DNA of 64,000 nt, taken from NCBI GenBank assembly GCA_951812955.1, contig OX638340.1, forward strand, positions 288,001-352,000, in the 5' to 3' direction. The notes beneath the pieces were generated by a model. The model worked only from the letters and a program-made list of their open reading frames with translations. It did not search any database and was not told the origin of the DNA. Below are positions 55,613-64,000 of the stretch, in pieces (the first letter of the stretch is position 1; the number at the start of each line of letters is the position of its first letter). The translations under genes and the position numbers were made by a program. The stretch is from an uncultured Gemmatimonadota bacterium. GTDB taxonomy: Bacteria > JAAXHH01.

Positions 55613-56962
55613 GTGAATATGCGCCCTGCGAAAGCTACAGCCACCACGACCGCCCATCCCTTCTCAAATAGACCCCACGCCACACTCATTCGGCTAACTT
55701 TTCCCGTTCTGCTCTCGCTGATCGCGGAACCGCTTACCGGCCTCGTGGACACCGCCTTCATCAAGCAACTCGGCGCGGAGTCCCTCGCCGCCCTCGGCGT
55801 CGGCGCCGTCGCGCTATCTGGCCTCTTCTGGGTCTTTAACTTTCTCGGTATCAGCACCCAGACGGAAGTGGCCCAGGCCGAGGGCGACAACGACAGGAAC
55901 CGGTCCGTTTCCATGAGCAGCCTGGCCCTCTGCATGAGCATGGCTTTCGGACTGCTGATCATCGTCTTCGGCGTTCCGCTTACGTCGTATCTCGCGACGC
56001 TACTGGGCGCTGCCGGCGCAATACACGACGGGGCCGTGGACTACATCTGGTGGCGGTGGTTCGGTGCGCCGGCCATCCTGATCACGCTGACGGCCAGCGG
56101 AGCCTTGCGGGGACTTCAGGATATGCGCTCGCCGCTCTGGATCGCCCTGGGCATCAACGGCATCAATATCGTGCTCGATCCCATGCTCATATTCGGTGCG
56201 GGACCTGTGCCCGCGCTGGGGATCACCGGAGCGGCAGTAGCCAGCGTCATCGCCTATTGGATCGGCGCCGCCTGGTCGCTCTGGATCATAAAACGCAAGC
56301 TTGGCTGGTCCCTGCCGGCTGATTTCAGCGCGGTTGGCCGACTGATGCGCACGGGCACCGATCTTTTCATACGCACCGGCGTACTGAACCTGTTTCTCCT
56401 CCTGACGACCCGCGAAGCCACGCACGGCGGCGCAGACGTCGGGGCCGCACACCAGGCGATCAGGCAGGTCTGGATGTTCGGCACGTTCGTACTGGACGCG
56501 CTGGCCGTCACGGGACAGAGCCTGGTCGGTTACTTTCTCGGCGGCGAACGGATCAGAAGCGCCAGGAAAGTGGCCCGAATCGTCTGCCTGTGGAGCGTAT
56601 GGTCCGGATGCCTGCTTGGGTTCGTTCTCTGGCTGGGAAGCGGGTTCGTGGTCGATCTGCTCGTGCCTCCCAGCGCCGCTCCCTATTTCCATTCGGCCTG
56701 GATCGTCGCCATCGCCGTACAACCGCTCAACGCCCTGGCCTTCGCCACCGATGGATTGCACTGGGGATCGGGGGACTACCGGTACCTGAGAAACGCGGTG
56801 ATCCTGGCGACCGGCGCCGGCGCGGCCGGACTGCTGGCCGGCCCCCACTCCCTGGACTGGATCTGGATAATGACGGCGGTCTGGATCAGCGTCCGCGCCA
56901 CGCTGGGGGTGATACGGATCTGGCCCGGGGTGGGGAACAGTCCGTTTCGGGTGGAGGACTAA
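55613..56962 (+). CDS. MATE family efflux transporter
   Basis: 449 aa with 12 predicted TM helices and MATE-like organisation. Confidence 0.8.
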   Translation: MNMRPAKATATTTAHPFSNRPHATLIRLTFPVLLSLIAEPLTGLVDTAFIKQLGAESLAALGVGAVALSGLFWVFNFLGISTQTEVAQAEGDNDRNRSVSMSSLALCMSMAFGLLIIVFGVPLTSYLATLLGAAGAIHDGAVDYIWWRWFGAPAILITLTASGALRGLQDMRSPLWIALGINGINIVLDPMLIFGAGPVPALGITGAAVASVIAYWIGAAWSLWIIKRKLGWSLPADFSAVGRLMRTGTDLFIRTGVLNLFLLLTTREATHGGADVGAAHQAIRQVWMFGTFVLDALAVTGQSLVGYFLGGERIRSARKVARIVCLWSVWSGCLLGFVLWLGSGFVVDLLVPPSAAPYFHSAWIVAIAVQPLNALAFATDGLHWGSGDYRYLRNAVILATGAGAAGLLAGPHSLDWIWIMTAVWISVRATLGVIRIWPGVGNSPFRVED

Positions 56963-57361
56963 TTATGCCTGCCAAACTATTGATTGTACGACTTCGGCTA
57001 AGTCCTTGTCGAAGGTTTTAACGTCACTGACACCTCGACGTTGGCAACTCGCCAAGTGGCAGAGGTCTCTCGCTTTAAGTTTGGGATACTGAAAGTGAAG
57101 TTGGTGGGCAAGATACACGTCTCCACCCTCAAACGGCCAGACTACAATTCCCCGATCCGAAATGAATTCTACCGCTTCCCCGAAAGTTGGCAGTCGATTT
57201 GTGGCAAGGTACACATGCAACAGTTCCTGCAAAACTTCTGTGGAAGTACATAACTGATTGGGTTTGCGGACGGACGCACGAAAGAACTCCCGTGCTTGCT
57301 CTCTCCGTGGATGCTCCTTGCCGACCGCATACATGAAAACGTTGGTGTCGACAAAGATCAT
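56963..57361 (-). CDS. vapC: PIN-domain ribonuclease toxin (VapC-like)
   Basis: 132 aa with a PIN acidic-residue pattern starting MIFVDTNVFMYAV. Its start overlaps the stop of the upstream gene (ATGA). It lies in a lower-GC segment. Confidence 0.85.
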   Translation of the reverse strand: MIFVDTNVFMYAVGKEHPRREQAREFFRASVRKPNQLCTSTEVLQELLHVYLATNRLPTFGEAVEFISDRGIVVWPFEGGDVYLAHQLHFQYPKLKARDLCHLASCQRRGVSDVKTFDKDLAEVVQSIVWQA

Positions 57362-58344
57362 GTATTCGTGGTTCCGCTTCCTTTCGACTGCTTGATGACT
57401 TCAAGTTGCTCTTCCCAATCAGGTTCCGATTTGGGACCAGGGAGGTCGTCGCACTTGTCAAAAAAGGTATCCAGTTCAGCCAATTTCTCGATGGCTTCCT
57501 TCTCTGATAGAATGTAGTTCTTTCTTTGGGTATGGAGTTCCTTGAGCCATATCTCGAATTCGTCGTGGCGGTCCCGTCGTTTTCGGTCGAAAAACCCGTC
57601 AGTATTCCTTATCTCGTTAAAAAGGGTGTACGCTATGCCCGCGATACTCGCGAGATAGTAGTACTCCTGGCCTTCATAGATGGAAATCGGGTATTCTGTT
57701 CCTTTCATCGCGTACCGTTCAAAGTTTATGCCGATCGCAATATCGTGTCGTCTCTCGTCTTCGCTTGAGGCATTTCCGAATACTTCGGCCAACCAAGTGT
57801 TTTCCGGGTATGCACCCAATATGTCTTCTTCTTCGGATTGGTTCTCGTATGGGATGACGACGCAACGTTCGAATTCAAGGCTGTTTTTCCTAGCGTCTAT
57901 GAGCAACTTCTGGATGTTATGGCCATAGTTCCCTTTGAGATCAATCGGCAATATCCTCTCGTCCTTGAAGAGCATGTATGCCTTGAGACCCAACTCAACA
58001 CCGTGTAGGAAGTTATATACCGTCGATTGATGAGTTTCCGGAAATAACAGATCGAATGATTTCTTCCAGTCGCGAGATAGTTCATTGCGCGCTATCCGTA
58101 CGAACTCCTTTCCATGTTCGAAAAACTCCCTATGGCCGAACCACTGCTCACCGATGGGCGTATGAGTGAACTGGGATTCGTTCTTCTTGTCATTACGAAT
58201 ATGTAGATTAATGAGTTCACGGGCTTCATCCCGGTCCAACGATTTGCGTTTTCCGGTACCGTCTTGTTGATAGAATCGGCCTTCCGTGTCACGTACTACC
58301 GTTATGTTTGGTGATGTATTGAAATGGTACTGTTTTAGTTTCAT
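57358..58344 (-). CDS. Uncharacterised 328-aa protein in the antitoxin position of the VapC operon. It may carry a C-terminal antitoxin-like domain fused to an unknown N-terminal domain.
   Basis: Continuous ORF with visibly lower GC than the flanks. Its stop overlaps the vapC start. I recognise no motif apart from a weak K-x4-H (KGNYGH) element. Confidence 0.6.
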   Translation of the reverse strand: MKLKQYHFNTSPNITVVRDTEGRFYQQDGTGKRKSLDRDEARELINLHIRNDKKNESQFTHTPIGEQWFGHREFFEHGKEFVRIARNELSRDWKKSFDLLFPETHQSTVYNFLHGVELGLKAYMLFKDERILPIDLKGNYGHNIQKLLIDARKNSLEFERCVVIPYENQSEEEDILGAYPENTWLAEVFGNASSEDERRHDIAIGINFERYAMKGTEYPISIYEGQEYYYLASIAGIAYTLFNEIRNTDGFFDRKRRDRHDEFEIWLKELHTQRKNYILSEKEAIEKLAELDTFFDKCDDLPGPKSEPDWEEQLEVIKQSKGSGTTNT

Positions 58345-58522
58345 TTGGCGATGTCCTTCTAAATGCTCTCCTTTGATGAATTGGCCGTACTATTGACTAT
58401 GCATTGAAATTCGCAGAATACAGGGTAGCCGTCAAACGGAATTTGATCATTACATTCTGGATTCATGATTACTGTTTGTGAGCGTGGACTGTACGCGTGA
58501 TTATGACATCTGAGTTCTCTGC

Positions 58523-58840
58523 TCAGTCGAACTGGTCCAGGAGTTCCTCGATAGGTTCTTTGCCAGGCCATGCGCCTGCAAGTTCAATAGGATCGAGATT
58601 TCGTGCGTGCTCCGCTTTGTCCGACAACAGATCATGCGGTTGTTGAGTTTCTACGGATGGTATTACCTCGAATGCGCCTTCCTTTACCAGTCGACGGCTG
58701 ATACGGCGAACTTCGATCAGTCTCGCCTGACCGTTGGGCCTGAAATGTACCATCCCTTCGACAGTGACCTGCTTACCCCATAGAAAACGCCGGGCCTCAA
58801 TTTTCAAAGGCTCGGCGCATATCCTTCCCGAAGCGAGCAA
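58523..58840 (-). CDS. Small hypothetical protein (105 aa)
   Basis: ORF that begins 42 bp downstream of the 583-aa gene on the same strand. Coding status is uncertain. Confidence 0.3.
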   Translation of the reverse strand: MLASGRICAEPLKIEARRFLWGKQVTVEGMVHFRPNGQARLIEVRRISRRLVKEGAFEVIPSVETQQPHDLLSDKAEHARNLDPIELAGAWPGKEPIEELLDQFD

Positions 58841-58882
58841 GCGGGCAAGTTCGCTTGTAATGACCGCGCTTGAACCAGTGAT

Positions 58883-60634
58883 TCAGCTCCACGGAAACTC
58901 GAAGGTCGGCCGGTTCACGTACCGTTCCATGGCGATCTCTATCCGAACCCCAGAACCGGGCGCGAGCAGAAGTTTGAGATAGTCGCCGGTCACTTCCACG
59001 GTCCCCCCATTCCCTTCCGCTGCGTCGCGACCGACTGTAAACGATTTCAACGTGTGCTCCCGATAGGCGCCGCCCTGGATGACGACCTCCGAGGGCTCCA
59101 CGGGATTTACATTGACCAGGGTTACTGCCGATTCCGTATCGCCGACCGTATCCACAAGGGCCGCCACGTCCTGTGGAAGGCCTGGCCGGCGCTCCACGGG
59201 ATCGAAATACCGGAACATGCAGTGAACCGCCTGGGCGCGCTTCGGGGCGGGACCGCCCATGGTCTGCTGAAAGAGTGTGCCCGGAGTCGCCGGGTTGACG
59301 GCATTCGTGTTGTCTGACAGGCGCGTGTCCGGCGTCATGGTATCGTTGCGTATCCATTCCACTTTTTCGCGGACGGACGCCAGGTCGGCGTGCAACGCCT
59401 CCTCGGGGTAATTGGGGTTTTCGCCGCTCAGGTAACTCATCCACGCATCATCCGGGCAGCGCGCCCGGGCCTCCTCCGACATCGACCAGTACCAGGTCTC
59501 CATCGTGCCGACACGGTAGGGGTTCGGTGTGTAGTTGTACCATCCGTCGTCCCCGAACTTGTTCGGGTACTGCATCTGGCCGTCCACTACCCGTCCGTTT
59601 TCGTTGATGAGGTCGATCATCTCGCTCCACGGCGCCGCGTAGGAGCGGTCCCCGGTCAGCAGCAGCGCGTGACTGAAGCCCGACAGGCCCAGTTGGATCG
59701 TGTCGCGGTGCACGATCCGGCCGTCCTGGGGCGCGACGGTCGTGAATCCCCATCCATAACACCCGCCGTACCACTTGCCGTCGCAGGCGCCGCCGATGGT
59801 GCCGTCCAGTCCGATATTGGTGGGGATGATGCCGCCGTTCGCCCGGGTGCGTTCGACCCACGAGTCCACATATTCCAGGATCCATTCCCGGTATTTGTCC
59901 TCGCCCGTCAGCGCGTAGGCATTGAAGGCCAGTCCCGTCGCGAGCATGTTGGAGGGATGGTCGCCTATCACGTCGGTATAGTCTTTGAAATGGCCCAGCA
60001 TTTCCTCGAAGTTGCGCTCGCCGTGGGCCAGGACGAAGCGGCCCTCCTCGATGGGATCGCCCGCCCAGTCGATGGGCTCGGCCTTGCGCAGCATGGGGCC
60101 TCGGCTCCCGTTGAACAGGCTGCGGATGATCCGGTGTTCCGGGTCGTAGTTACGCGCCCCGGGATCCTCGTCCATGTAGAAACCGGACCACTGCCGCACC
60201 CGCCGCTCGAATTCCTCCGCGCCCGGGTCACAGAGACCGAGGTCGCCGAAGACCGACATGCTCTCGCCGTTGTGAAGCCAGTCGAACATGACGGGGAATT
60301 CCTTGTAGTACATCCCGTCCCGGCAGAAGGGCACGTCCACTGTCTTCGCCTCGGTGTACTGGAGGATGTGGCCGTCCTGCGCCTGGTTGCTCATGTCGAG
60401 CAGGTTCTCCGGACCGCCCATCATGTACAGAACAGGCCATCCGGTCAGGTTTTCGATGGCGTCGTCAGGACCGTCGTCGCCGCCCCAGCGGGGCACGCAG
60501 CGCATGTAACCCCGCTCGTCGAAGTAACGGTCGTAGAAGTATTCGCAGGCCCGCGCCTGGGCTTTAAGGGACTCCTTCTGCAGGAGGGCCCAGGATGGGG
60601 GTGGCATCGGTGTGGTGATGGTCAGGGTGGTCAT
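58883..60634 (-). CDS. Hypothetical aromatic-rich protein (583 aa), possibly glycoside-hydrolase-like
   Basis: Long ORF with normal high GC. It is rich in W/Y/G/D, as in carbohydrate-active enzymes. I cannot assign a family. An AT-rich putative promoter region lies upstream (60635-60760). Confidence 0.55.
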   Translation of the reverse strand: MTTLTITTPMPPPSWALLQKESLKAQARACEYFYDRYFDERGYMRCVPRWGGDDGPDDAIENLTGWPVLYMMGGPENLLDMSNQAQDGHILQYTEAKTVDVPFCRDGMYYKEFPVMFDWLHNGESMSVFGDLGLCDPGAEEFERRVRQWSGFYMDEDPGARNYDPEHRIIRSLFNGSRGPMLRKAEPIDWAGDPIEEGRFVLAHGERNFEEMLGHFKDYTDVIGDHPSNMLATGLAFNAYALTGEDKYREWILEYVDSWVERTRANGGIIPTNIGLDGTIGGACDGKWYGGCYGWGFTTVAPQDGRIVHRDTIQLGLSGFSHALLLTGDRSYAAPWSEMIDLINENGRVVDGQMQYPNKFGDDGWYNYTPNPYRVGTMETWYWSMSEEARARCPDDAWMSYLSGENPNYPEEALHADLASVREKVEWIRNDTMTPDTRLSDNTNAVNPATPGTLFQQTMGGPAPKRAQAVHCMFRYFDPVERRPGLPQDVAALVDTVGDTESAVTLVNVNPVEPSEVVIQGGAYREHTLKSFTVGRDAAEGNGGTVEVTGDYLKLLLAPGSGVRIEIAMERYVNRPTFEFPWS

Positions 60635-60902
60635 GGGACAGACTAATTCAGCTGCTAGGAAGTCTTTGATATTGGATCTTGCTAATGCTCAATTGCCGTG
60701 GTATTCAGGACTGCGTCTGTATGACTTAGTCTCATATAGACTATACAAAAAGTCAAGTATTGAAGGAGTTTCCTTATCGCCAACTTCGTTCAGGAAAGCA
60801 TACCTTCACGACTAAGCGGACTAACATAGAAGCCGGCGGTGATGCGATGCGTGAGCATTTGATATTGCGACGGAGGTCATGGAGGGCATTGCATGGAATA
60901 AA

Positions 60903-60929
60903 AACGGCACCCTCCAGGGGATTGCCGTT
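60903..60929 (-). terminator. Putative Rho-independent terminator for the Sel1-repeat gene (stem aacggca/tgccgtt followed by a U-run on the minus strand)
   Basis: The hairpin AAACGGCACCCTCCAGGGGATTGCCGTTT is followed on the minus strand by TTTTTATT. It lies about 90 bp downstream of the stop at 61020. Confidence 0.5.
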
Positions 60930-61019
60930 TGTATTGCGTCACGTGAACTTCAATGGTCCGGCGATGGCAGTGAGTCAAGCCATCGGGTTAATAAAATCGA
61001 TCTGGCATTTTGCTCTTTC

Positions 61020-62861
61020 TCACTTCTTCCGTTTACTCCTCCCCGTATTCACGGAACGGTTTGGTGAACCGGAGTTGCGACCGGACGATGACGTTCGACC
61101 GCTCTTGCGGACGTTTGGTGTACTACGAGGTTGCTGCCTGACCTTCGGGGTACTTCGCGATTGCCGTCCTACACTCGGCGTGCTTCGCGGTTTCTTCCGG
61201 GCGTTCTGGTCCGAGGTCCGGTTGACGCGAGCAGTATCCTGCCTGCTGCGCCCCGAGTTGGCATTCACGTTCGAGGCCTGCCGGCTTCGGTTCGGATTCC
61301 TGTTTGATTTCGAAACCTGCTTGTCACGGTTCGGATTGGGATTTGGTTTATTCGTCCGAACCACACTGGGTCTCTTGACTCGGTTCGGTTGCTTCCGTTC
61401 GGTACGATCCGGTTTTTGCCTCACACTCTGCCAAGGCGGATCGAATCGACTGTTGGGACCCTTGCCCTTGTTGGACGAATCAACCGAAAGGTTTCGAAAC
61501 GGCCTGCCCACGCGAACTGGATGCTGACGTAAGCCTCGAGAGTGACTGGCTCCACGCCGGACTTTCCCGGGCCTGCGATCCACGACGGTTACGTTGCGTC
61601 CCCATCGTCTTCTCGGATGGGGCCACGGGTTGTATCGCACGAACAACCAAGGACGTACGGAACGCCAATAGACGCCCACTGGGCAACGCCAGGGTATGTA
61701 CACGCTTCCCGGCCATAGTATGGGGTCGCACCACCCGGGCCAATGGCCCGAAAACAGTCCTGGATGAACGACCACGGTAGTTCTGCGGTCAATCTCCGTC
61801 ATGCCCTCTTCGACCGTTTCAGCTTCCTCGCTTGCTTCTACTTCGTCCACTACGGTCGAATCATTTGCATCGTACTGGCCAGCATTCGCGGTTGAATCCA
61901 AGGCATCCGCATTCATCCCGGCAGGATTCGTCGCATATGCCGAATCCCTGGACTCAGCTGCCAATTTGAACCACCTTGCCGCCTCTTCAAAGTTCTGTGC
62001 AACACCCAGTCCCTCGGCGTACATGTTGCCCAGGGCGTACTGGGCGTCGGCCAGTCCCTGTTCGGCCGCCAGCCGGTACCACATCGCGGCTTCGGTGTAG
62101 TTCTGCGCTACCCCCTGTCCCGCTGCGACGAAGGATCCCAGGTCGGCGGACGATTTTCCAGGTTCCTGTTCCGCAGCCATCGCGTACAGGGAACCCAGGT
62201 TGAATTGCGCCACTGCAAGGCCCTGATCCGCGGCTAAGCGATACCACCGGGCTGCTTCCGAGTAGCTCTGGAGCACTCCCTCGCCTTCAGCAAACAAGGA
62301 ACCCAGGAGGTTCTGCGCATCGCCGAGGCCCTGTTCGGCAGCCGCGAGATACCATCGGGCAGCTTCCGCGAAGCTCTGTGGCACGCCATGACCCGTGGCA
62401 TACATGGAACCCAGGACAAATTGGGCGTCGGCCAGTTCCTGTTCGGCCGCTTTACGGTACCACTTTACAGCTTCAACCTCGTTCCGGGGCACGCCGAAAC
62501 CGTAGTTATGCATGAATCCGTAGTTCATCTGCGCAACGGCATGGCCCTGTTCGGCTGCGGCACGACAGGTGGGCACCAGCGCGGATGCTTCATCAGGTGT
62601 CAAATAGCCCAACGACTCGGACCGCGAGAAATCCTCCATGCATGAGGCGAGCAAAGGATCCGCACCGCCCTGTACAGTCTGAACCGATTGATCGAACGGC
62701 GCGGTCTGAATGGTCTGTACAGGCTCGTCGGACTGTACAGGCTCGTCGGACTGTACAGGCTGAACGTCCTGAGCAGACAGGGCGAAAACACGATTTGGAA
62801 ATATCGCACCACACAACAATAGTGGCAGAATAGTCCCAATCAGTGGCAATTTAGCCCCCAT
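61020..62861 (-). CDS. Secreted Sel1/TPR-like repeat protein with an acidic linker, a W/P-rich segment and a very basic repetitive C-terminal tail
   Basis: It has a signal peptide MGAKLPLIGTILPLLLCGAIFPNRVFALSA. It has at least seven Sel1-like repeats (AEQG.A.AQ..LG.MY..G.GV). It has an internal 18-bp tandem repeat (62715-62768, VQSDEP x2). The tail is encoded by ~30-bp tandem repeats at 61111-61200. Confidence 0.7.
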   Translation of the reverse strand: MGAKLPLIGTILPLLLCGAIFPNRVFALSAQDVQPVQSDEPVQSDEPVQTIQTAPFDQSVQTVQGGADPLLASCMEDFSRSESLGYLTPDEASALVPTCRAAAEQGHAVAQMNYGFMHNYGFGVPRNEVEAVKWYRKAAEQELADAQFVLGSMYATGHGVPQSFAEAARWYLAAAEQGLGDAQNLLGSLFAEGEGVLQSYSEAARWYRLAADQGLAVAQFNLGSLYAMAAEQEPGKSSADLGSFVAAGQGVAQNYTEAAMWYRLAAEQGLADAQYALGNMYAEGLGVAQNFEEAARWFKLAAESRDSAYATNPAGMNADALDSTANAGQYDANDSTVVDEVEASEEAETVEEGMTEIDRRTTVVVHPGLFSGHWPGWCDPILWPGSVYIPWRCPVGVYWRSVRPWLFVRYNPWPHPRRRWGRNVTVVDRRPGKVRRGASHSRGLRQHPVRVGRPFRNLSVDSSNKGKGPNSRFDPPWQSVRQKPDRTERKQPNRVKRPSVVRTNKPNPNPNRDKQVSKSNRNPNRSRQASNVNANSGRSRQDTARVNRTSDQNARKKPRSTPSVGRQSRSTPKVRQQPRSTPNVRKSGRTSSSGRNSGSPNRSVNTGRSKRKK

Positions 62862-63192
62862 GGTTGCACCTCCTGATGGTAGGCGAAAAGACAGCTCTTG
62901 CGTGTCGAATTCAGCATCCGCATTTGGATTCGGATGGCAAGCCATGATTTTAGTGAGTAAGAAAGGTCCTGTTTACTACGTACACCTGATTATACGCTAG
63001 GGTTCCTTGTGCGGTTCCCTATAGATTTGATTCTGTATCGTTTCGGAAAGTCACGATACCGCGAGGGGATACTGCGATACAGTATAGGATCATTCGGGTT
63101 TGGAAATCCAGGTTTGTTTGATTCCAATAAGATGAATTGGCGAATTCGTTAGATTGTATTTCGGTTGGCTGGATGGCAACACTCGATAGCTC

Positions 63193-63221
63193 TTGACACA
63201 ACGATCCAGGGCGTGGATAAT
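63193..63221 (+). promoter_or_regulatory. Sigma70-like promoter TTGACA-N17-GATAAT upstream of the terminal aldolase gene
   Basis: Near-consensus hexamers with 17-bp spacing lie about 80 bp upstream of ATG 63300 in an AT-rich intergenic region. Confidence 0.45.
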
Positions 63222-63299
63222 CTTCTGGATTCATTCACTTGCTAACCGTTGTTATTCCTCAATCTATCAAGTTACCGAACCGTTCCGAAAGGATCCGGC

Positions 63300-64000
63300 A
63301 TGCGAAAGAGTAAGGTCCTCACCAAGCTTCGTTCCTCCGGCTTCGTCCGGATGGCAGGCCTTGGCCACTATCTGCCGTTTTATATACGCTATGCCGCCCA
63401 TTTCAAGTACGATGGCTTGTGGTTCGACCTGGAACACCGGGCGATGGATTCCCGGGAGGTCCAGTCGATACTTGCCATGTGCAGGCAGCACGACATCGAC
63501 TGCATGGTGCGCCCGCCGACCCTTGAAAGGACCCGCCTGTACAGATACCTGGAAGACGGTGCCACGGGCTTCATGATTCCCTTCATGTCCACGGCGGAAA
63601 TTGCCCGCCATGTCGTAGACTGCACGAAGTTTCCGCCCCTGGGGAACAGGGGTATCGATGGCGCCGGAATCGATGGTGACTTCGGCATCGATGTGTGGAA
63701 AGAGGGGACGACCTACTACGAAGATGCGAACCGGGAGACGTTCATCGTAGGCCAGATCGAAACCGTGGAAGGTTTGCGCAACGTGGACGCCATCGCGGCG
63801 GTGGAGGGCATTGACGTGGTTTTCATCGGCCCCGCCGACCTGACGCACCGCCTGGAGACCGATCCCAACGTCAACTGGACGCTGGACGATGCCATATCTC
63901 GCGTATCTGACGCGGCCGAAAGGCATGGCAAGGCCTGGGGTATCACTGCCGGTACTCCGGAACAGGTGGCGAATTACCGTGGTCTGGGCGCGAGCCTTGT
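63300..64000 (+). CDS. HpcH/HpaI family aldolase (partial, runs off the window end)
   Basis: Hand translation gives MRKSKVLTKLRSSGFVRMAGLGHYLP...FIVGQIETVEGLRNVDAIAAVEGIDVVFIGPADL... No stop lies in the window, so it is absent from the ORF track. Confidence 0.75.
   Translation, partial: MRKSKVLTKLRSSGFVRMAGLGHYLPFYIRYAAHFKYDGLWFDLEHRAMDSREVQSILAMCRQHDIDCMVRPPTLERTRLYRYLEDGATGFMIPFMSTAEIARHVVDCTKFPPLGNRGIDGAGIDGDFGIDVWKEGTTYYEDANRETFIVGQIETVEGLRNVDAIAAVEGIDVVFIGPADLTHRLETDPNVNWTLDDAISRVSDAAERHGKAWGITAGTPEQVANYRGLGASL

What the first reader, a model, noticed from the sequence alone, without database searches (positions are those of the whole stretch)
56963..58344. Low-GC island: a VapC (PIN) toxin whose overlapping upstream partner is a 328-aa protein of unknown function rather than a small VapB
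Seen: the region is visibly AT-richer than its flanks (roughly 45-50% against over 60% by eye). The PIN gene start and the upstream gene stop share ATGA, the translational-coupling signature of toxin-antitoxin operons. The upstream ORF is 328 aa, four times the usual VapB size. I recognise no motif apart from a weak K-x4-H element. It ends in a charged, helical tail. Inference: this may be a fused sensor/antitoxin, or a two-gene defence module (PIN effector plus a large regulatory or sensing partner) acquired horizontally.
Basis: partly seen in the sequence, partly recalled or inferred. Interest (0 to 1): 0.7.

Follow-up and report, generated by a model that had tools for sequence, protein, structure and literature searches.

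The report
VapC toxin with HEPN-fused antitoxin
This is a toxin-antitoxin gene pair in which the small DNA-binding antitoxin that normally accompanies a VapC (PIN) RNase has been replaced by a 328-residue chimera, made of an HEPN-fold domain joined to the toxin-binding end of a VapB antitoxin; this is a new variant of a well-known kind of system, so far seen only in a narrow group of uncultured bacteria.

Summary
On the minus strand, a 328-aa ORF (57358..58344) and a 132-aa PIN/VapC gene (56963..57361) share ATGA. They lie in the only stretch of the window with GC below 0.52 (0.47 against a window mean of 0.60).

The 328-aa protein matches no Pfam, NCBIfam, PADLOC or PDB sequence profile. It resolves into three parts:
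- Residues 1-55 are a small beta-sheet-plus-helix domain with no clear relatives.
- Residues 247-328 are homologous (hhalign 99%, E 6e-18) to a large family of 91-aa ribbon-helix-helix VapB-like antitoxins, minus their DNA-reading beta-strand. In the five loci from two members that I checked, the genes of these small antitoxins overlap PIN genes 57-59% identical to this one.

Among 19 related loci, an intact PIN occurs only next to copies that keep the C-terminal tail (8 of 12 with the tail, 0 of 7 without). Both genes are under purifying selection (Ka/Ks 0.12-0.30).

Best reading: a VapBC-type module with a chimeric HEPN::VapB antitoxin. The role of the HEPN part (scaffold, sensor or second RNase) is open. 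I rate it a new variant of a known kind, of moderate interest.

The parts
57358..58344 (-). Gene for the 328-aa chimeric antitoxin candidate (N-terminal domain + HEPN-fold core + VapB-derived C-terminal part).
   Evidence: ORF. 39 homologue clusters, none named or with Pfam domains. Ka/Ks 0.14-0.27 against seven orthologues. AF2 model pLDDT 71.5, pTM 0.71.
58354..58360 (-). Shine-Dalgarno-like AGAAGGA, 9 nt before the ATG of the 328-aa gene.
   Evidence: Read directly from the sequence. No sigma-70-like promoter was found upstream by the consensus scan.
58180..58344 (-). Residues 1-55: small domain of four beta-strands and one helix, function unknown.
57607..58152 (-). Residues ~65-246: HEPN-fold helical core, with a ~30-residue low-confidence loop (about 154-183).
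57982..57996 (-). E117-x3-K121 (LHGVELGLKAY), invariant in the whole family and in distant single-domain relatives. It corresponds to the E-x3-[KR] motif of HEPN domains.
   Evidence: Alignments A1 and A3. Motif definition from PMC3710099 section 6.
57919..57936 (-). K137-G-N-Y-G-H142: a degenerate Rx4-6H motif, with His invariant and Arg replaced by Lys.
   Evidence: Alignments. Spacing is 4, 5, 6 or 11 residues in tail-bearing members and 3-6 in tail-less ones. Distant relatives mostly have R-x3-6-H, a few K.
57361..57606 (-). Residues 247-328: region homologous to RHH-type VapB-like antitoxins from their first helix to the C-terminus. The DNA-reading beta-strand is missing.
   Evidence: hhalign of A1 against A5: probability 99%, E 5.6e-18, 80 columns, window residues 247-328 against VapB residues 12-91. 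Profile search hits P0051-P0071 match only this part.
57361..57477 (-). Residues 290-328: putative VapC-binding tail, DTFFDKCDDLPGPKSEPDWEEQLEVIKQSKGSGTTNT.
   Evidence: tblastn gives 58% identity over 45 aa to the C-terminus of a 91-aa antitoxin next to a PIN gene (E 1e-11). F, C, D, G, P, E, P and W are invariant across both families. Low pLDDT when modelled alone. Presence of the tail tracks presence of PIN.
57358..57361 (-). ATGA overlap of the antitoxin stop and the toxin start (translational coupling).
   Evidence: Sequence. Conserved in L001 and L004-L008. The small VapB-PIN pairs also overlap by 4 nt (L020 ATGA, L023 TTGA).
56963..57361 (-). vapC: 132-aa PIN-domain RNase toxin.
   Evidence: Pfam PIN E 3e-18. 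D5, E42, D98 and D117 invariant. Ka/Ks 0.12-0.30. 57-59% identical to PINs paired with 91-aa RHH antitoxins.
56950..58750 (.). Low-GC island (about 0.43-0.52) containing the pair and most of an upstream 105-aa ORF.
   Evidence: The orthologous modules are also 0.47-0.49 GC in loci of 0.57-0.62.

Best explanation
This is a type II, VapBC-like toxin-antitoxin module whose antitoxin is a chimera.

The toxin is an ordinary, apparently active PIN-domain RNase (VapC).

The antitoxin gene encodes three parts: a small N-terminal beta/alpha domain (residues 1-55), an HEPN-fold domain (about 65-246), and the C-terminal four-fifths of an RHH-type VapB antitoxin (247-328). That last part comprises the two RHH helices, a linker and the acidic toxin-binding tail. 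It lacks the N-terminal beta-strand that reads DNA.

Inferred mechanism:
- The two genes are co-translated through the ATGA overlap.
- The tail, disordered on its own, folds onto VapC and blocks its active site, as VapB tails do. The conserved S-[RK] near the end (Lys in this protein) may reach into the acidic pocket.
- The HEPN domain replaces the RHH dimer as the oligomerisation and control module. Release of VapC would then depend on what happens to the HEPN part (proteolysis, ligand or partner binding), not on the usual DNA-coupled autoregulation.
- In the PIN-linked clade the HEPN site is probably not a canonical RNase. The Arg is replaced by Lys, and the K-to-H spacing is 11 in about half of the tail-bearing members. 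Its invariant E, K and H argue that some binding or catalytic function is kept.

Shown: the gene arrangement, the PIN identity, the HEPN-like fold and motifs, the homology of the tail to VapB-like antitoxins of related PINs, the co-occurrence of tail and PIN, and purifying selection.

Inferred: neutralisation through the tail, loss of DNA binding, and the role of the HEPN domain.
For: PIN identity and intact acidic residues.

ATGA coupling is conserved in six orthologous loci; the small VapB-PIN pairs overlap by 4 nt in the same way.

The exhaustive profile search found small 67-139 aa proteins that match only profile positions ~250-328. A word-indexed search found at least 1315 such proteins, mostly 91 aa, one named 'antitoxin' by NCBI. 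Their N-termini give only weak RHH hits. In L020-L025 (the five loci fetched for two members) they are followed by a PIN gene with a 4-nt overlap, and that PIN is 57-59% identical to the window PIN. For a third member, P0137, no PIN was found downstream.

hhalign of the 328-aa family against the small family gives 99% probability, E 5.6e-18, over window residues 247-328.

Tally of tail against PIN (counting near-identical loci once):
- Tail present, PIN intact: 8 loci (window, L001, L004-L008, L030).
- Tail present, PIN lost: 4 (L002, L003, L033, L028/29).
- Tail absent, PIN intact: 0.
- Tail absent, no PIN: 7 (L009, L010, L034, L016/17, L018, L019, L032).
Sources.

The pair also occurs together in a second genomic context (L030).

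The tail has low pLDDT when modelled alone, as expected for a segment that folds on binding. Ka/Ks is 0.12-0.30 for both genes.
Against: - No experiment and no model of the complex: binding of the tail to this PIN is inferred from homology and co-occurrence only.
- The co-occurrence counts are not phylogenetically independent, because most loci belong to one lineage.
- The homology across the RHH helices (247-280) is weaker than across the tail, and this segment is also present in tail-less homologues. The direction of evolution (fusion followed by tail loss, or the reverse) is not settled.
- In L008 the PIN is intact while the upstream gene has an in-frame TAG at codon 36. This needs either a restart at an internal start or an assembly error.
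- Four loci keep the tail without a PIN, so the big protein can persist without the toxin.
Confidence: 0.68

Rival explanations
1. This is a two-RNase module. The HEPN domain is itself an active or activatable RNase, so the upstream protein is both the antitoxin of VapC and a second toxin or effector. The two nucleases hold each other in check in a complex and are released together, for example during phage infection, as an abortive-infection device.
For: - E117, K121, D135 and H142 are invariant, and a basic residue (K137 here, Arg in two members) is always kept. E, K and H are also kept in distant relatives that have R-x3-6-H.
- PMC3710099 notes HEPN families that keep the His but lack the Arg of the motif and may still be RNases.
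- Tail-less homologues lie in defence neighbourhoods typical of HEPN effectors: directly after hsdR-hsdM-hsdS (L032), next to Mrr_cat and AAA_14 genes, and near a 1268-aa SIR2_2 protein.
- The site in this lineage also carries a Schlafen/AlbA_2 gene in some genomes.
Against: - The Arg of the motif is Lys in every PIN-linked member, and the K-to-H spacing is 11 in about half of them, outside the 4-6 range of known HEPN RNases.
- Tail-less copies stand alone without an obvious antitoxin, so the protein is not constitutively toxic.
- No PADLOC model matches either protein.
- There is no activity data.
Confidence: 0.2
2. The 328-aa protein has a primary function of its own, as an HEPN-family protein of restriction-modification or defence islands. 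The VapB tail and VapC gene are merely an addiction cassette that fused to it by accident. They stabilise the locus but take no part in what the HEPN protein does.
For: - The protein persists intact without PIN in L002, L003 and L033.
- Tail-less homologues of 42-50% identity exist in other lineages without any PIN.
- The module decays often, as chromosomal TA loci do.
Against: - The tail is under the same purifying selection as the rest of the ORF, and its motif is conserved over Ks up to 1.5.
- The fused arrangement moves as a unit into a second context (L030).
- An antitoxin surviving the loss of its toxin is the expected order of decay, so it does not argue for independence.
Confidence: 0.09
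3. The pair is a decaying, non-functional remnant of a horizontally acquired island, and the long ORF is a chance or degenerate reading frame.
For: - Low GC.
- Several orthologous loci are truncated, frameshifted or internally deleted: L002, L008, L010, L028/29 and L034.
Against: - There are 39 homologue clusters with 31 invariant columns.
- Ka/Ks is 0.14-0.27 over the whole frame and 0.12-0.30 for PIN.
- The catalytic residues of the PIN are intact.
- The model is confident for most of the chain.
Confidence: 0.03

Closest known systems
VapBC type II toxin-antitoxin systems with ribbon-helix-helix VapB (the PIN-RHH pairs of Makarova et al. 2009, PMC2701414). The nearest relatives are an unnamed family of 91-aa antitoxins ending in FF..CD.L.GP..EPDWEEHL.VI..SR.G, which has no Pfam model.
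   Same: - The toxin is a PIN 57-59% identical to theirs.
- The antitoxin gene lies upstream with a 4-nt overlap.
- The last ~80 residues of the antitoxin are homologous (hhalign 99%), including the C-terminal motif down to the final SGTTNT.
Sources.
   Different: - The antitoxin is 328 aa instead of 91.
- The N-terminal beta-strand that forms the DNA-reading sheet of an RHH dimer is replaced by 246 residues (a small beta/alpha domain plus an HEPN-fold domain).
- No DNA-binding domain is recognisable, so the usual autoregulation by the antitoxin is doubtful.
- The module has low GC, whereas the small pairs examined match their hosts' GC.
HEPN superfamily (Anantharaman et al. 2013, PMC3710099), including MNT-HEPN toxin-antitoxin systems and the HEPN proteins embedded in restriction-modification operons.
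   Same: - An upstream E-x3-K motif and a conserved His in an [RK]-x-H motif.
- Tail-less relatives sit next to type I restriction-modification, Mrr and SIR2 genes.
   Different: - No MNT partner.
- The HEPN gene is in the antitoxin position, not the toxin position.
- The Arg of the motif is Lys, and the spacing reaches 11.
- No significant sequence match to any Pfam HEPN model.
- Makarova et al. 2009 reported that HEPN-MNT pairs do not mix with other toxin-antitoxin partners apart from some fusions. A HEPN protein acting as partner of a PIN toxin is not in the papers I could read.
Modular or 'hyperpromiscuous' antitoxins: domain swapping between the regulatory domain and the toxin-neutralising segment (NetFlax network, Ernits et al. 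2023, PMC10440598). Also the RHH-HEPN fusions noted in Pyrobaculum (PMC2701414).
   Same: - A toxin-binding segment is combined with an unrelated N-terminal domain.
- PIN toxins are known to pair with many antitoxin types (RHH, AbrB, PHD, Xre, PanA, ImmA-like).
   Different: The added domain here belongs to a nuclease/toxin superfamily rather than being a DNA-binding, protease or PanA domain, and the fusion removes the DNA-reading element. In the archaeal RHH-HEPN fusions no PIN partner is described.
Eukaryotic Swt1 (a PIN domain fused to a dyad of HEPN domains; table in PMC3710099).
   Same: PIN and HEPN domains are combined in one functional unit.
   Different: Swt1 is a single eukaryotic polypeptide involved in RNA surveillance with inactive HEPN domains. 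It has no VapB-like tail and no toxin-antitoxin logic. The resemblance is one of domain content only.

Membership tests
PIN-domain VapC toxin | Match to the PIN domain model above the curated threshold | tested here: met
   PF01850, E 3e-18, 67 bits against a cut-off of 23.6. The narrower NCBIfam subfamily TIGR00028 is below its cut-off (32.9 against 73.6), so it is a general VapC-type PIN, not a member of that subfamily.
PIN-domain VapC toxin | Conserved acidic active-site residues | tested here: met
   D5, E42, D98 and D117 are invariant in nine aligned homologues.
PIN-domain VapC toxin | Toxicity or RNase activity, neutralised by the upstream gene product | not testable with these tools
   Needs expression and neutralisation assays.
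RHH-type VapB antitoxin (91-aa family ending in CD.L.GP..EPDW) | C-terminal toxin-binding segment homologous to the family | tested here: met
   hhalign 99%, E 5.6e-18 over residues 247-328. tblastn 58% identity over 45 aa, E 1e-11. Eight invariant columns are shared.
RHH-type VapB antitoxin (91-aa family ending in CD.L.GP..EPDW) | Gene directly upstream of, and overlapping, a cognate PIN gene | tested here: met
   ATGA overlap in the window and six orthologous loci. The small-antitoxin loci L020-L025 have the same 4-nt overlap.
RHH-type VapB antitoxin (91-aa family ending in CD.L.GP..EPDW) | Complete N-terminal ribbon-helix-helix DNA-binding domain, including the beta-strand; small size (about 70-140 aa) | tested here: not met
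   The alignment starts at VapB residue 12, after the MARVQLVIPD strand. The protein is 328 aa, and residues 1-246 are unrelated domains. It is therefore a derivative of the family, not a member.
HEPN superfamily | Four-helix up-and-down bundle fold of HEPN domains | tested here: met
   [not shown]
HEPN superfamily | Rx4-6H motif | tested here: inconclusive
   H142 is invariant, but the Arg is Lys in all PIN-linked members. Spacing is 4-6 in about half and 11 in the rest. Distant single-domain relatives mostly have R-x3-6-H, a few K. PMC3710099 describes HEPN families that keep only part of the motif.
HEPN superfamily | Upstream conserved acidic residue in an E-x3-[KR] motif | tested here: met
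   E117-x3-K121 is invariant in A1 and A3. Motif definition.
HEPN superfamily | Significant sequence match to a described HEPN family | tested here: not met
   No Pfam, NCBIfam or PDB sequence hit. One of 17 relatives hits PF05168, at E 0.068.
MNT-HEPN toxin-antitoxin system | Adjacent minimal nucleotidyltransferase (MNT) gene acting as antitoxin | tested here: not met
   The neighbours are PIN, MatE, a 105-aa ORF and a 583-aa protein. There is no nucleotidyltransferase.
Catalogued anti-phage defence systems (PADLOC-DB 2.0) | Match of either protein to a defence-system model | tested here: not met
   No hits at E up to 1 for the 328-aa protein, the PIN or the 105-aa ORF.

The most novel reading that the evidence does not exclude
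The upstream protein is at once the antitoxin of VapC and a latent HEPN nuclease or sensor. The module would then be a mutually inhibiting pair of RNases from two unrelated superfamilies, born when a defence-island HEPN protein captured the toxin-binding end of a VapB. A trigger acting on the HEPN domain would free VapC, and possibly activate HEPN, giving a dual-RNase abortive response without DNA-level autoregulation.
Probability: 0.2. Interest if true: 0.75.

Novelty: new variant of a known kind. Interest (0 to 1): 0.55.

Why it matters
Antitoxins are known to be modular, but the swapped-in domains described so far are DNA-binding, protease or dedicated antitoxin domains. Here the DNA-reading element of a VapB is replaced by a domain of the HEPN superfamily, which normally supplies toxins and defence RNases.

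If the tail does neutralise VapC, three things follow:
- It gives a natural example of how a toxin-binding peptide can be grafted onto an unrelated protein, putting a PIN RNase under new control.
- It gives a compact system for asking what an HEPN domain does when it is not the toxin.
- It defines an HEPN-like family with no Pfam model (single-domain forms, about 300-aa forms in restriction-modification and defence neighbourhoods, and PIN-linked forms), and a large family of 91-aa VapB-like antitoxins that also has no Pfam model.

The distribution is narrow: about 40 clusters, all from uncultured metagenome-assembled genomes. Nothing has been tested experimentally, which limits the immediate impact.

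Tried and rejected
- Sequence-profile searches of the 328-aa protein gave nothing significant: Pfam, NCBIfam, PADLOC, PHROGs, and PDB by profile. The best PDB hit was GCN2 at E 0.055, which I take as chance.
- A profile of the HEPN core plus distant relatives found nothing in the PDB, and only one weak PF05168 hit in Pfam.
- Foldseek against the PDB gave no significant match. The AlphaFold-database library was unavailable.
- The window PIN has no PDB relative by phmmer at E up to 0.01, so no solved complex could serve as a template for the tail-PIN interface.
- Hidden small VapB in another frame: the minus-strand alternative-frame ORFs lying inside the big gene are 48-66 aa and end well before the PIN start, and a 110-aa ORF (57129..57461) crosses the junction out of frame. 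The only internal Met near the VapB-like part (M213) is not conserved. Rejected.
- Promoter, terminator and repeat scans of 56700-59000 found nothing above the shuffled expectation and no meaningful repeats. Rfam found nothing.
- The exact-sequence look-up of the window protein's own contig failed; context came from related loci instead.
- The natural 108-aa variant P0043 (N-terminal domain joined to the tail) looked like a minimal antitoxin. It lies at the same site without any PIN, so it is a deletion remnant and says nothing about function.
Full report
**1. What is in the sequence**

On the minus strand there are two ORFs: 57358..58344 (328 aa) and 56963..57361 (132 aa). The sequence reads AATAC-ATGA-TCTTT, so the stop of the first and the start of the second share ATGA at 57358-57361. 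AGAAGGA lies 9 nt before the first ATG.

GC falls to 0.43-0.52 between about 56900 and 58700, against about 0.61-0.67 on both sides. The two genes together are 0.473 GC, against a window mean of 0.597 (sd 0.028 for windows of the same size). This is the only such stretch below 0.52 in the 64 kb.

The downstream protein is a PIN domain (PF01850, E 3e-18). D5, E42, D98 and D117 are invariant in nine homologues.

**2. The 328-aa protein is a real, conserved gene without a family name**

It matches no model in Pfam, NCBIfam, PADLOC or PHROGs and no PDB sequence.

A search of 5.8 billion proteins found 39 clusters at 42-100% identity. None has a Pfam domain or any name other than 'hypothetical protein'. 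The alignment has 31 invariant columns.

Against seven orthologues, Ka/Ks is 0.14-0.27 in the annotated frame; for the PIN gene it is 0.12-0.30. I found no candidate for a hidden small antitoxin in another frame: the minus-strand ORFs inside the gene are 48-66 aa and end well before the PIN start.

**3. Anatomy**

An AlphaFold2 model built on the family alignment (pLDDT 71.5, pTM 0.71) shows three regions:
- Four beta-strands and a helix (residues 1-53).
- A helical core (71-277) with a low-confidence loop (about 154-183).
- Two low-confidence terminal helices (281-299 and 310-319).

- ST0689, AF0298, further MNT-associated HEPN toxins, HI0074 and AbiV follow.

Anantharaman et al. 2013 define the HEPN signature as Rx4-6H plus an upstream E-x3-[KR] (PMC3710099, section 6). 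The family has E117-x3-K121 and H142 invariant, and K137-x4-H142 where the Arg would be.

Proteins of 150-260 aa from Bryobacterales and Vicinamibacterales MAGs, and others in the protein library, match only this core. They carry the same NFLHGxELxLKAYL helix followed by L-R-x3-6-H. These look like the single-domain form.

In the PIN-linked members the basic residue is always Lys. Its distance to the His is 4, 5 or 6 in about half and 11 in the rest. This argues against a canonical HEPN RNase site there, although the invariant E, K and H imply a conserved function.

*C-terminal part: the key result.* An exhaustive profile search of 1.84 billion representative proteins returned a set of small proteins (67-139 aa) that match only profile positions about 250-328. 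Their sequences begin MARVQLVIPDxDRDRFVxQARREGMTLSAWLR, which looks like a ribbon-helix-helix. Support for this is only weak: sub-threshold hits to RHH_1, RHH_5, NikA-like and DUF6290, and MazE7 at E 0.31. They end FFxxCDxLxGPxxEPDWEEHLxVIxxSRxxGxxxT, in two cases with the same final SGTTNT or SGTTGT as the window protein.

A further search found at least 1315 such proteins, nearly all 91 aa. One is named 'antitoxin' by NCBI.

In the five loci fetched for two of them (L020-L025), the gene is followed, with a 4-nt overlap, by a 128-130 aa PIN gene. That PIN is 57-59% identical to the window PIN. The antitoxin C-terminus is 58% identical to the window tail over 45 residues (tblastn E 1e-11). For a third small protein, P0137, no PIN was called or found downstream.

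Profile-profile comparison of the two families gives 99% probability, E 5.6e-18. It aligns window residues 247-328 with antitoxin residues 12-91: everything except the N-terminal beta-strand.

The 328-aa protein is therefore a chimera: a new N-terminal domain, an HEPN-fold domain, and a VapB without its DNA-reading strand.

**4. Comparative genomics**

The genome collection gave 15 loci, and exact look-ups gave more.

*Synteny.* In at least 13 loci the module sits at the same place, between a 583-aa gene and a convergent MatE gene. The flanking genes are 75-97% identical to the window. The big protein is 63-91% identical and the PIN 67-76%. So the module is old in this lineage and evolves faster than its surroundings.

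*GC.* The module is 0.47-0.49 GC in all of these loci, against 0.57-0.62 for the loci as a whole. The small RHH-VapBC relatives match their hosts' GC.

*Mobility.* The site is variable. Some genomes carry a Schlafen/AlbA_2 gene, a Sel1-like gene or other cargo there. The intact pair also occurs in a different context, after Rieske, Sel1 and Fic-like genes (L030, PIN 66% identical). A tail-less copy is in a Foliamicus (gammaproteobacterial) MAG (L009). So it moves as a unit as well.

*States of the module* (near-identical loci counted once):

| State | Loci |
|---|---|
| Tail and intact PIN | window, L001, L004-L008, L030 (8) |
| Tail, PIN truncated or deleted | L002, L003, L033, and the 108-aa deletion variant in L028/29 (4) |
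| No tail, no PIN | L009, L010, L034, L016/17, L018, L019, L032 (7) |
| No tail, intact PIN | none |

Sources.

This is the pattern expected if the tail is what keeps the PIN harmless, though the loci are not independent samples.

*One awkward case.* L008 has an intact PIN, but the upstream gene has TAG at codon 36 and a stop five codons early. A restart at an internal start would still give the HEPN domain and the tail.

*Tail-less homologues.* Homologues of about 295 aa lie directly after a type I hsdR-hsdM-hsdS operon, next to Mrr_cat and AAA_14 genes, and near a 1268-aa SIR2_2 gene. These are the surroundings typical of HEPN proteins according to PMC3710099.

**5. How it most likely works**

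*Shown:*
- The architecture of the pair.
- The homology of the tail to VapB-like antitoxins.
- The link between tail and PIN across loci.
- Purifying selection on both genes.
- An apparently active PIN site.

*Inferred from what is established for VapBC systems:*
- The two proteins are made together through the coupled ATGA.
- The tail, disordered on its own (pLDDT below 50 for most of 297-328), folds over VapC and blocks the active site.
- The conserved S-[RK] near the end (Lys in this protein) may reach the acidic pocket.
- Because the RHH strand is gone and no other DNA-binding domain is visible, classical autoregulation by the antitoxin is probably lost.
- The HEPN domain, a fold that usually dimerises, would then supply oligomerisation and whatever controls release of the toxin.

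I put this reading at about 0.68.

*Main rival (0.2).* The HEPN part is still a nuclease, so the module is a pair of mutually restrained RNases. The conserved E, K and H and the defence-type neighbourhoods of relatives favour this. The Lys-for-Arg change and the variable spacing count against it.

*Other rivals.* The tail and PIN may be only an addiction cassette attached to a protein with an unrelated job (0.09). The locus may be a dead remnant (0.03); the Ka/Ks values argue against that.

**6. Comparison with what is known**

It works like a VapBC system. It is not a member of the RHH-VapB family in the strict sense, because the RHH domain is incomplete and the protein is far larger.

It has the HEPN fold and half of the HEPN signature, but no significant sequence match to any described HEPN family. 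It is not an MNT-HEPN system.

Three papers bear on novelty:
- Makarova et al. 2009 found HEPN only with MNT, apart from some fusions, including RHH-HEPN fusions in Pyrobaculum.
- The NetFlax survey lists many antitoxin types for PIN toxins, but no HEPN-containing one in the text I read.
- A 'double-ribonuclease' toxin-antitoxin system described in Acidovorax is presented in the passages I read as combining type II and type V features; those passages mention HEPN only in discussing the HEPN-MNT system.

Full-text searches combining HEPN with VapB/VapC, PIN, antitoxin or sponge symbionts found no description of this arrangement. The library does not cover subscription journals, so absence there is not proof.

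**7. Verdict**

This is a new variant of a known kind of system, found in a narrow set of uncultured bacteria. Several MAG names and source labels suggest marine sponge microbiomes, which I did not verify.

Interest is moderate (0.55). The chimera is unusual and experimentally tractable. But antitoxin modularity is an established principle, and the function of the added domains is unknown.

Noticed in passing
window 58523..58840 (-): A 105-aa ORF lies inside the low-GC stretch, 178 nt upstream of the 328-aa gene on the same strand. It has 8 homologue clusters (55-95% identity, 109-175 aa, no Pfam domain and no name). These lie directly upstream of big-protein homologues in L010, L028/29, L033 and L034, but are absent from L001-L008. 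It gives only a weak DUF5818 hit (E 0.013). Function is unknown; it could be an occasional third gene of the island.
   Followed up: partly
window 56963-58883 and loci L001-L010, L028, L033, L034: The interval between the 583-aa gene (DUF8034 in the precomputed annotation of L033 and L034) and the convergent MatE gene is a variable hotspot in this lineage. Besides the module it carries a 434-aa Schlafen/AlbA_2 protein (L010, L028, L033), a Sel1-like 248-aa protein (L001), or unknown 363-aa and 464-aa genes.
   Followed up: partly
L032:1-4897; L017:3247-4906; L018:2925-8882: Tail-less homologues of the 328-aa protein sit in defence-type neighbourhoods. One is 62 nt after a complete type I hsdR-hsdM-hsdS operon. 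One is next to an Mrr_cat nuclease and an AAA_14/DUF4143 gene. One is overlapped by an unknown 359-aa upstream gene and lies near a 1268-aa SIR2_2 protein.
   Followed up: no
L034:4128-5275: At the syntenic site, a 293-aa copy truncated just before the tail is followed not by a PIN but by an 80-aa protein that looks like a ribbon-helix-helix antitoxin (LLAAVREIAREEGRHFQAVLEDAMREYIE).
   Followed up: no
proteins P0070, P0079, P0146 (139 aa): P0070, a member of the small VapB-like family, carries a duplicated FFR.CD.L motif: a tandem repeat of the start of the toxin-binding segment. P0079 and P0146 have the same 139-aa length, but I did not read their sequences.
   Followed up: no
L015:5236-6501; L011:5911-7576; L013:4953-6543: Distant single-domain relatives of the HEPN core lie next to mobile or toxin-antitoxin genes: a HicA/HicB-like pair (L015), a resolvase-like recombinase (L011) and an IS1595-like transposase (L013). 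I judged these from the ORF translations only.
   Followed up: no
window 60500-61500 and 62750-63350: Two further low-GC patches (0.46-0.51 and 0.44-0.47). The first contains an ORF (60760..61527, +) with repetitive FGVLRGC-like text and a strong AT skew (-0.49 at 61100-61400).
   Followed up: no
L008:4250-5245: In this MAG the orthologue of the 328-aa gene has an in-frame TAG at codon 36 and a stop five codons before the normal end, while the overlapping PIN gene is intact. This is either an assembly error, a restart at an internal start codon, or a toxin kept in check by a truncated antitoxin.
   Followed up: partly
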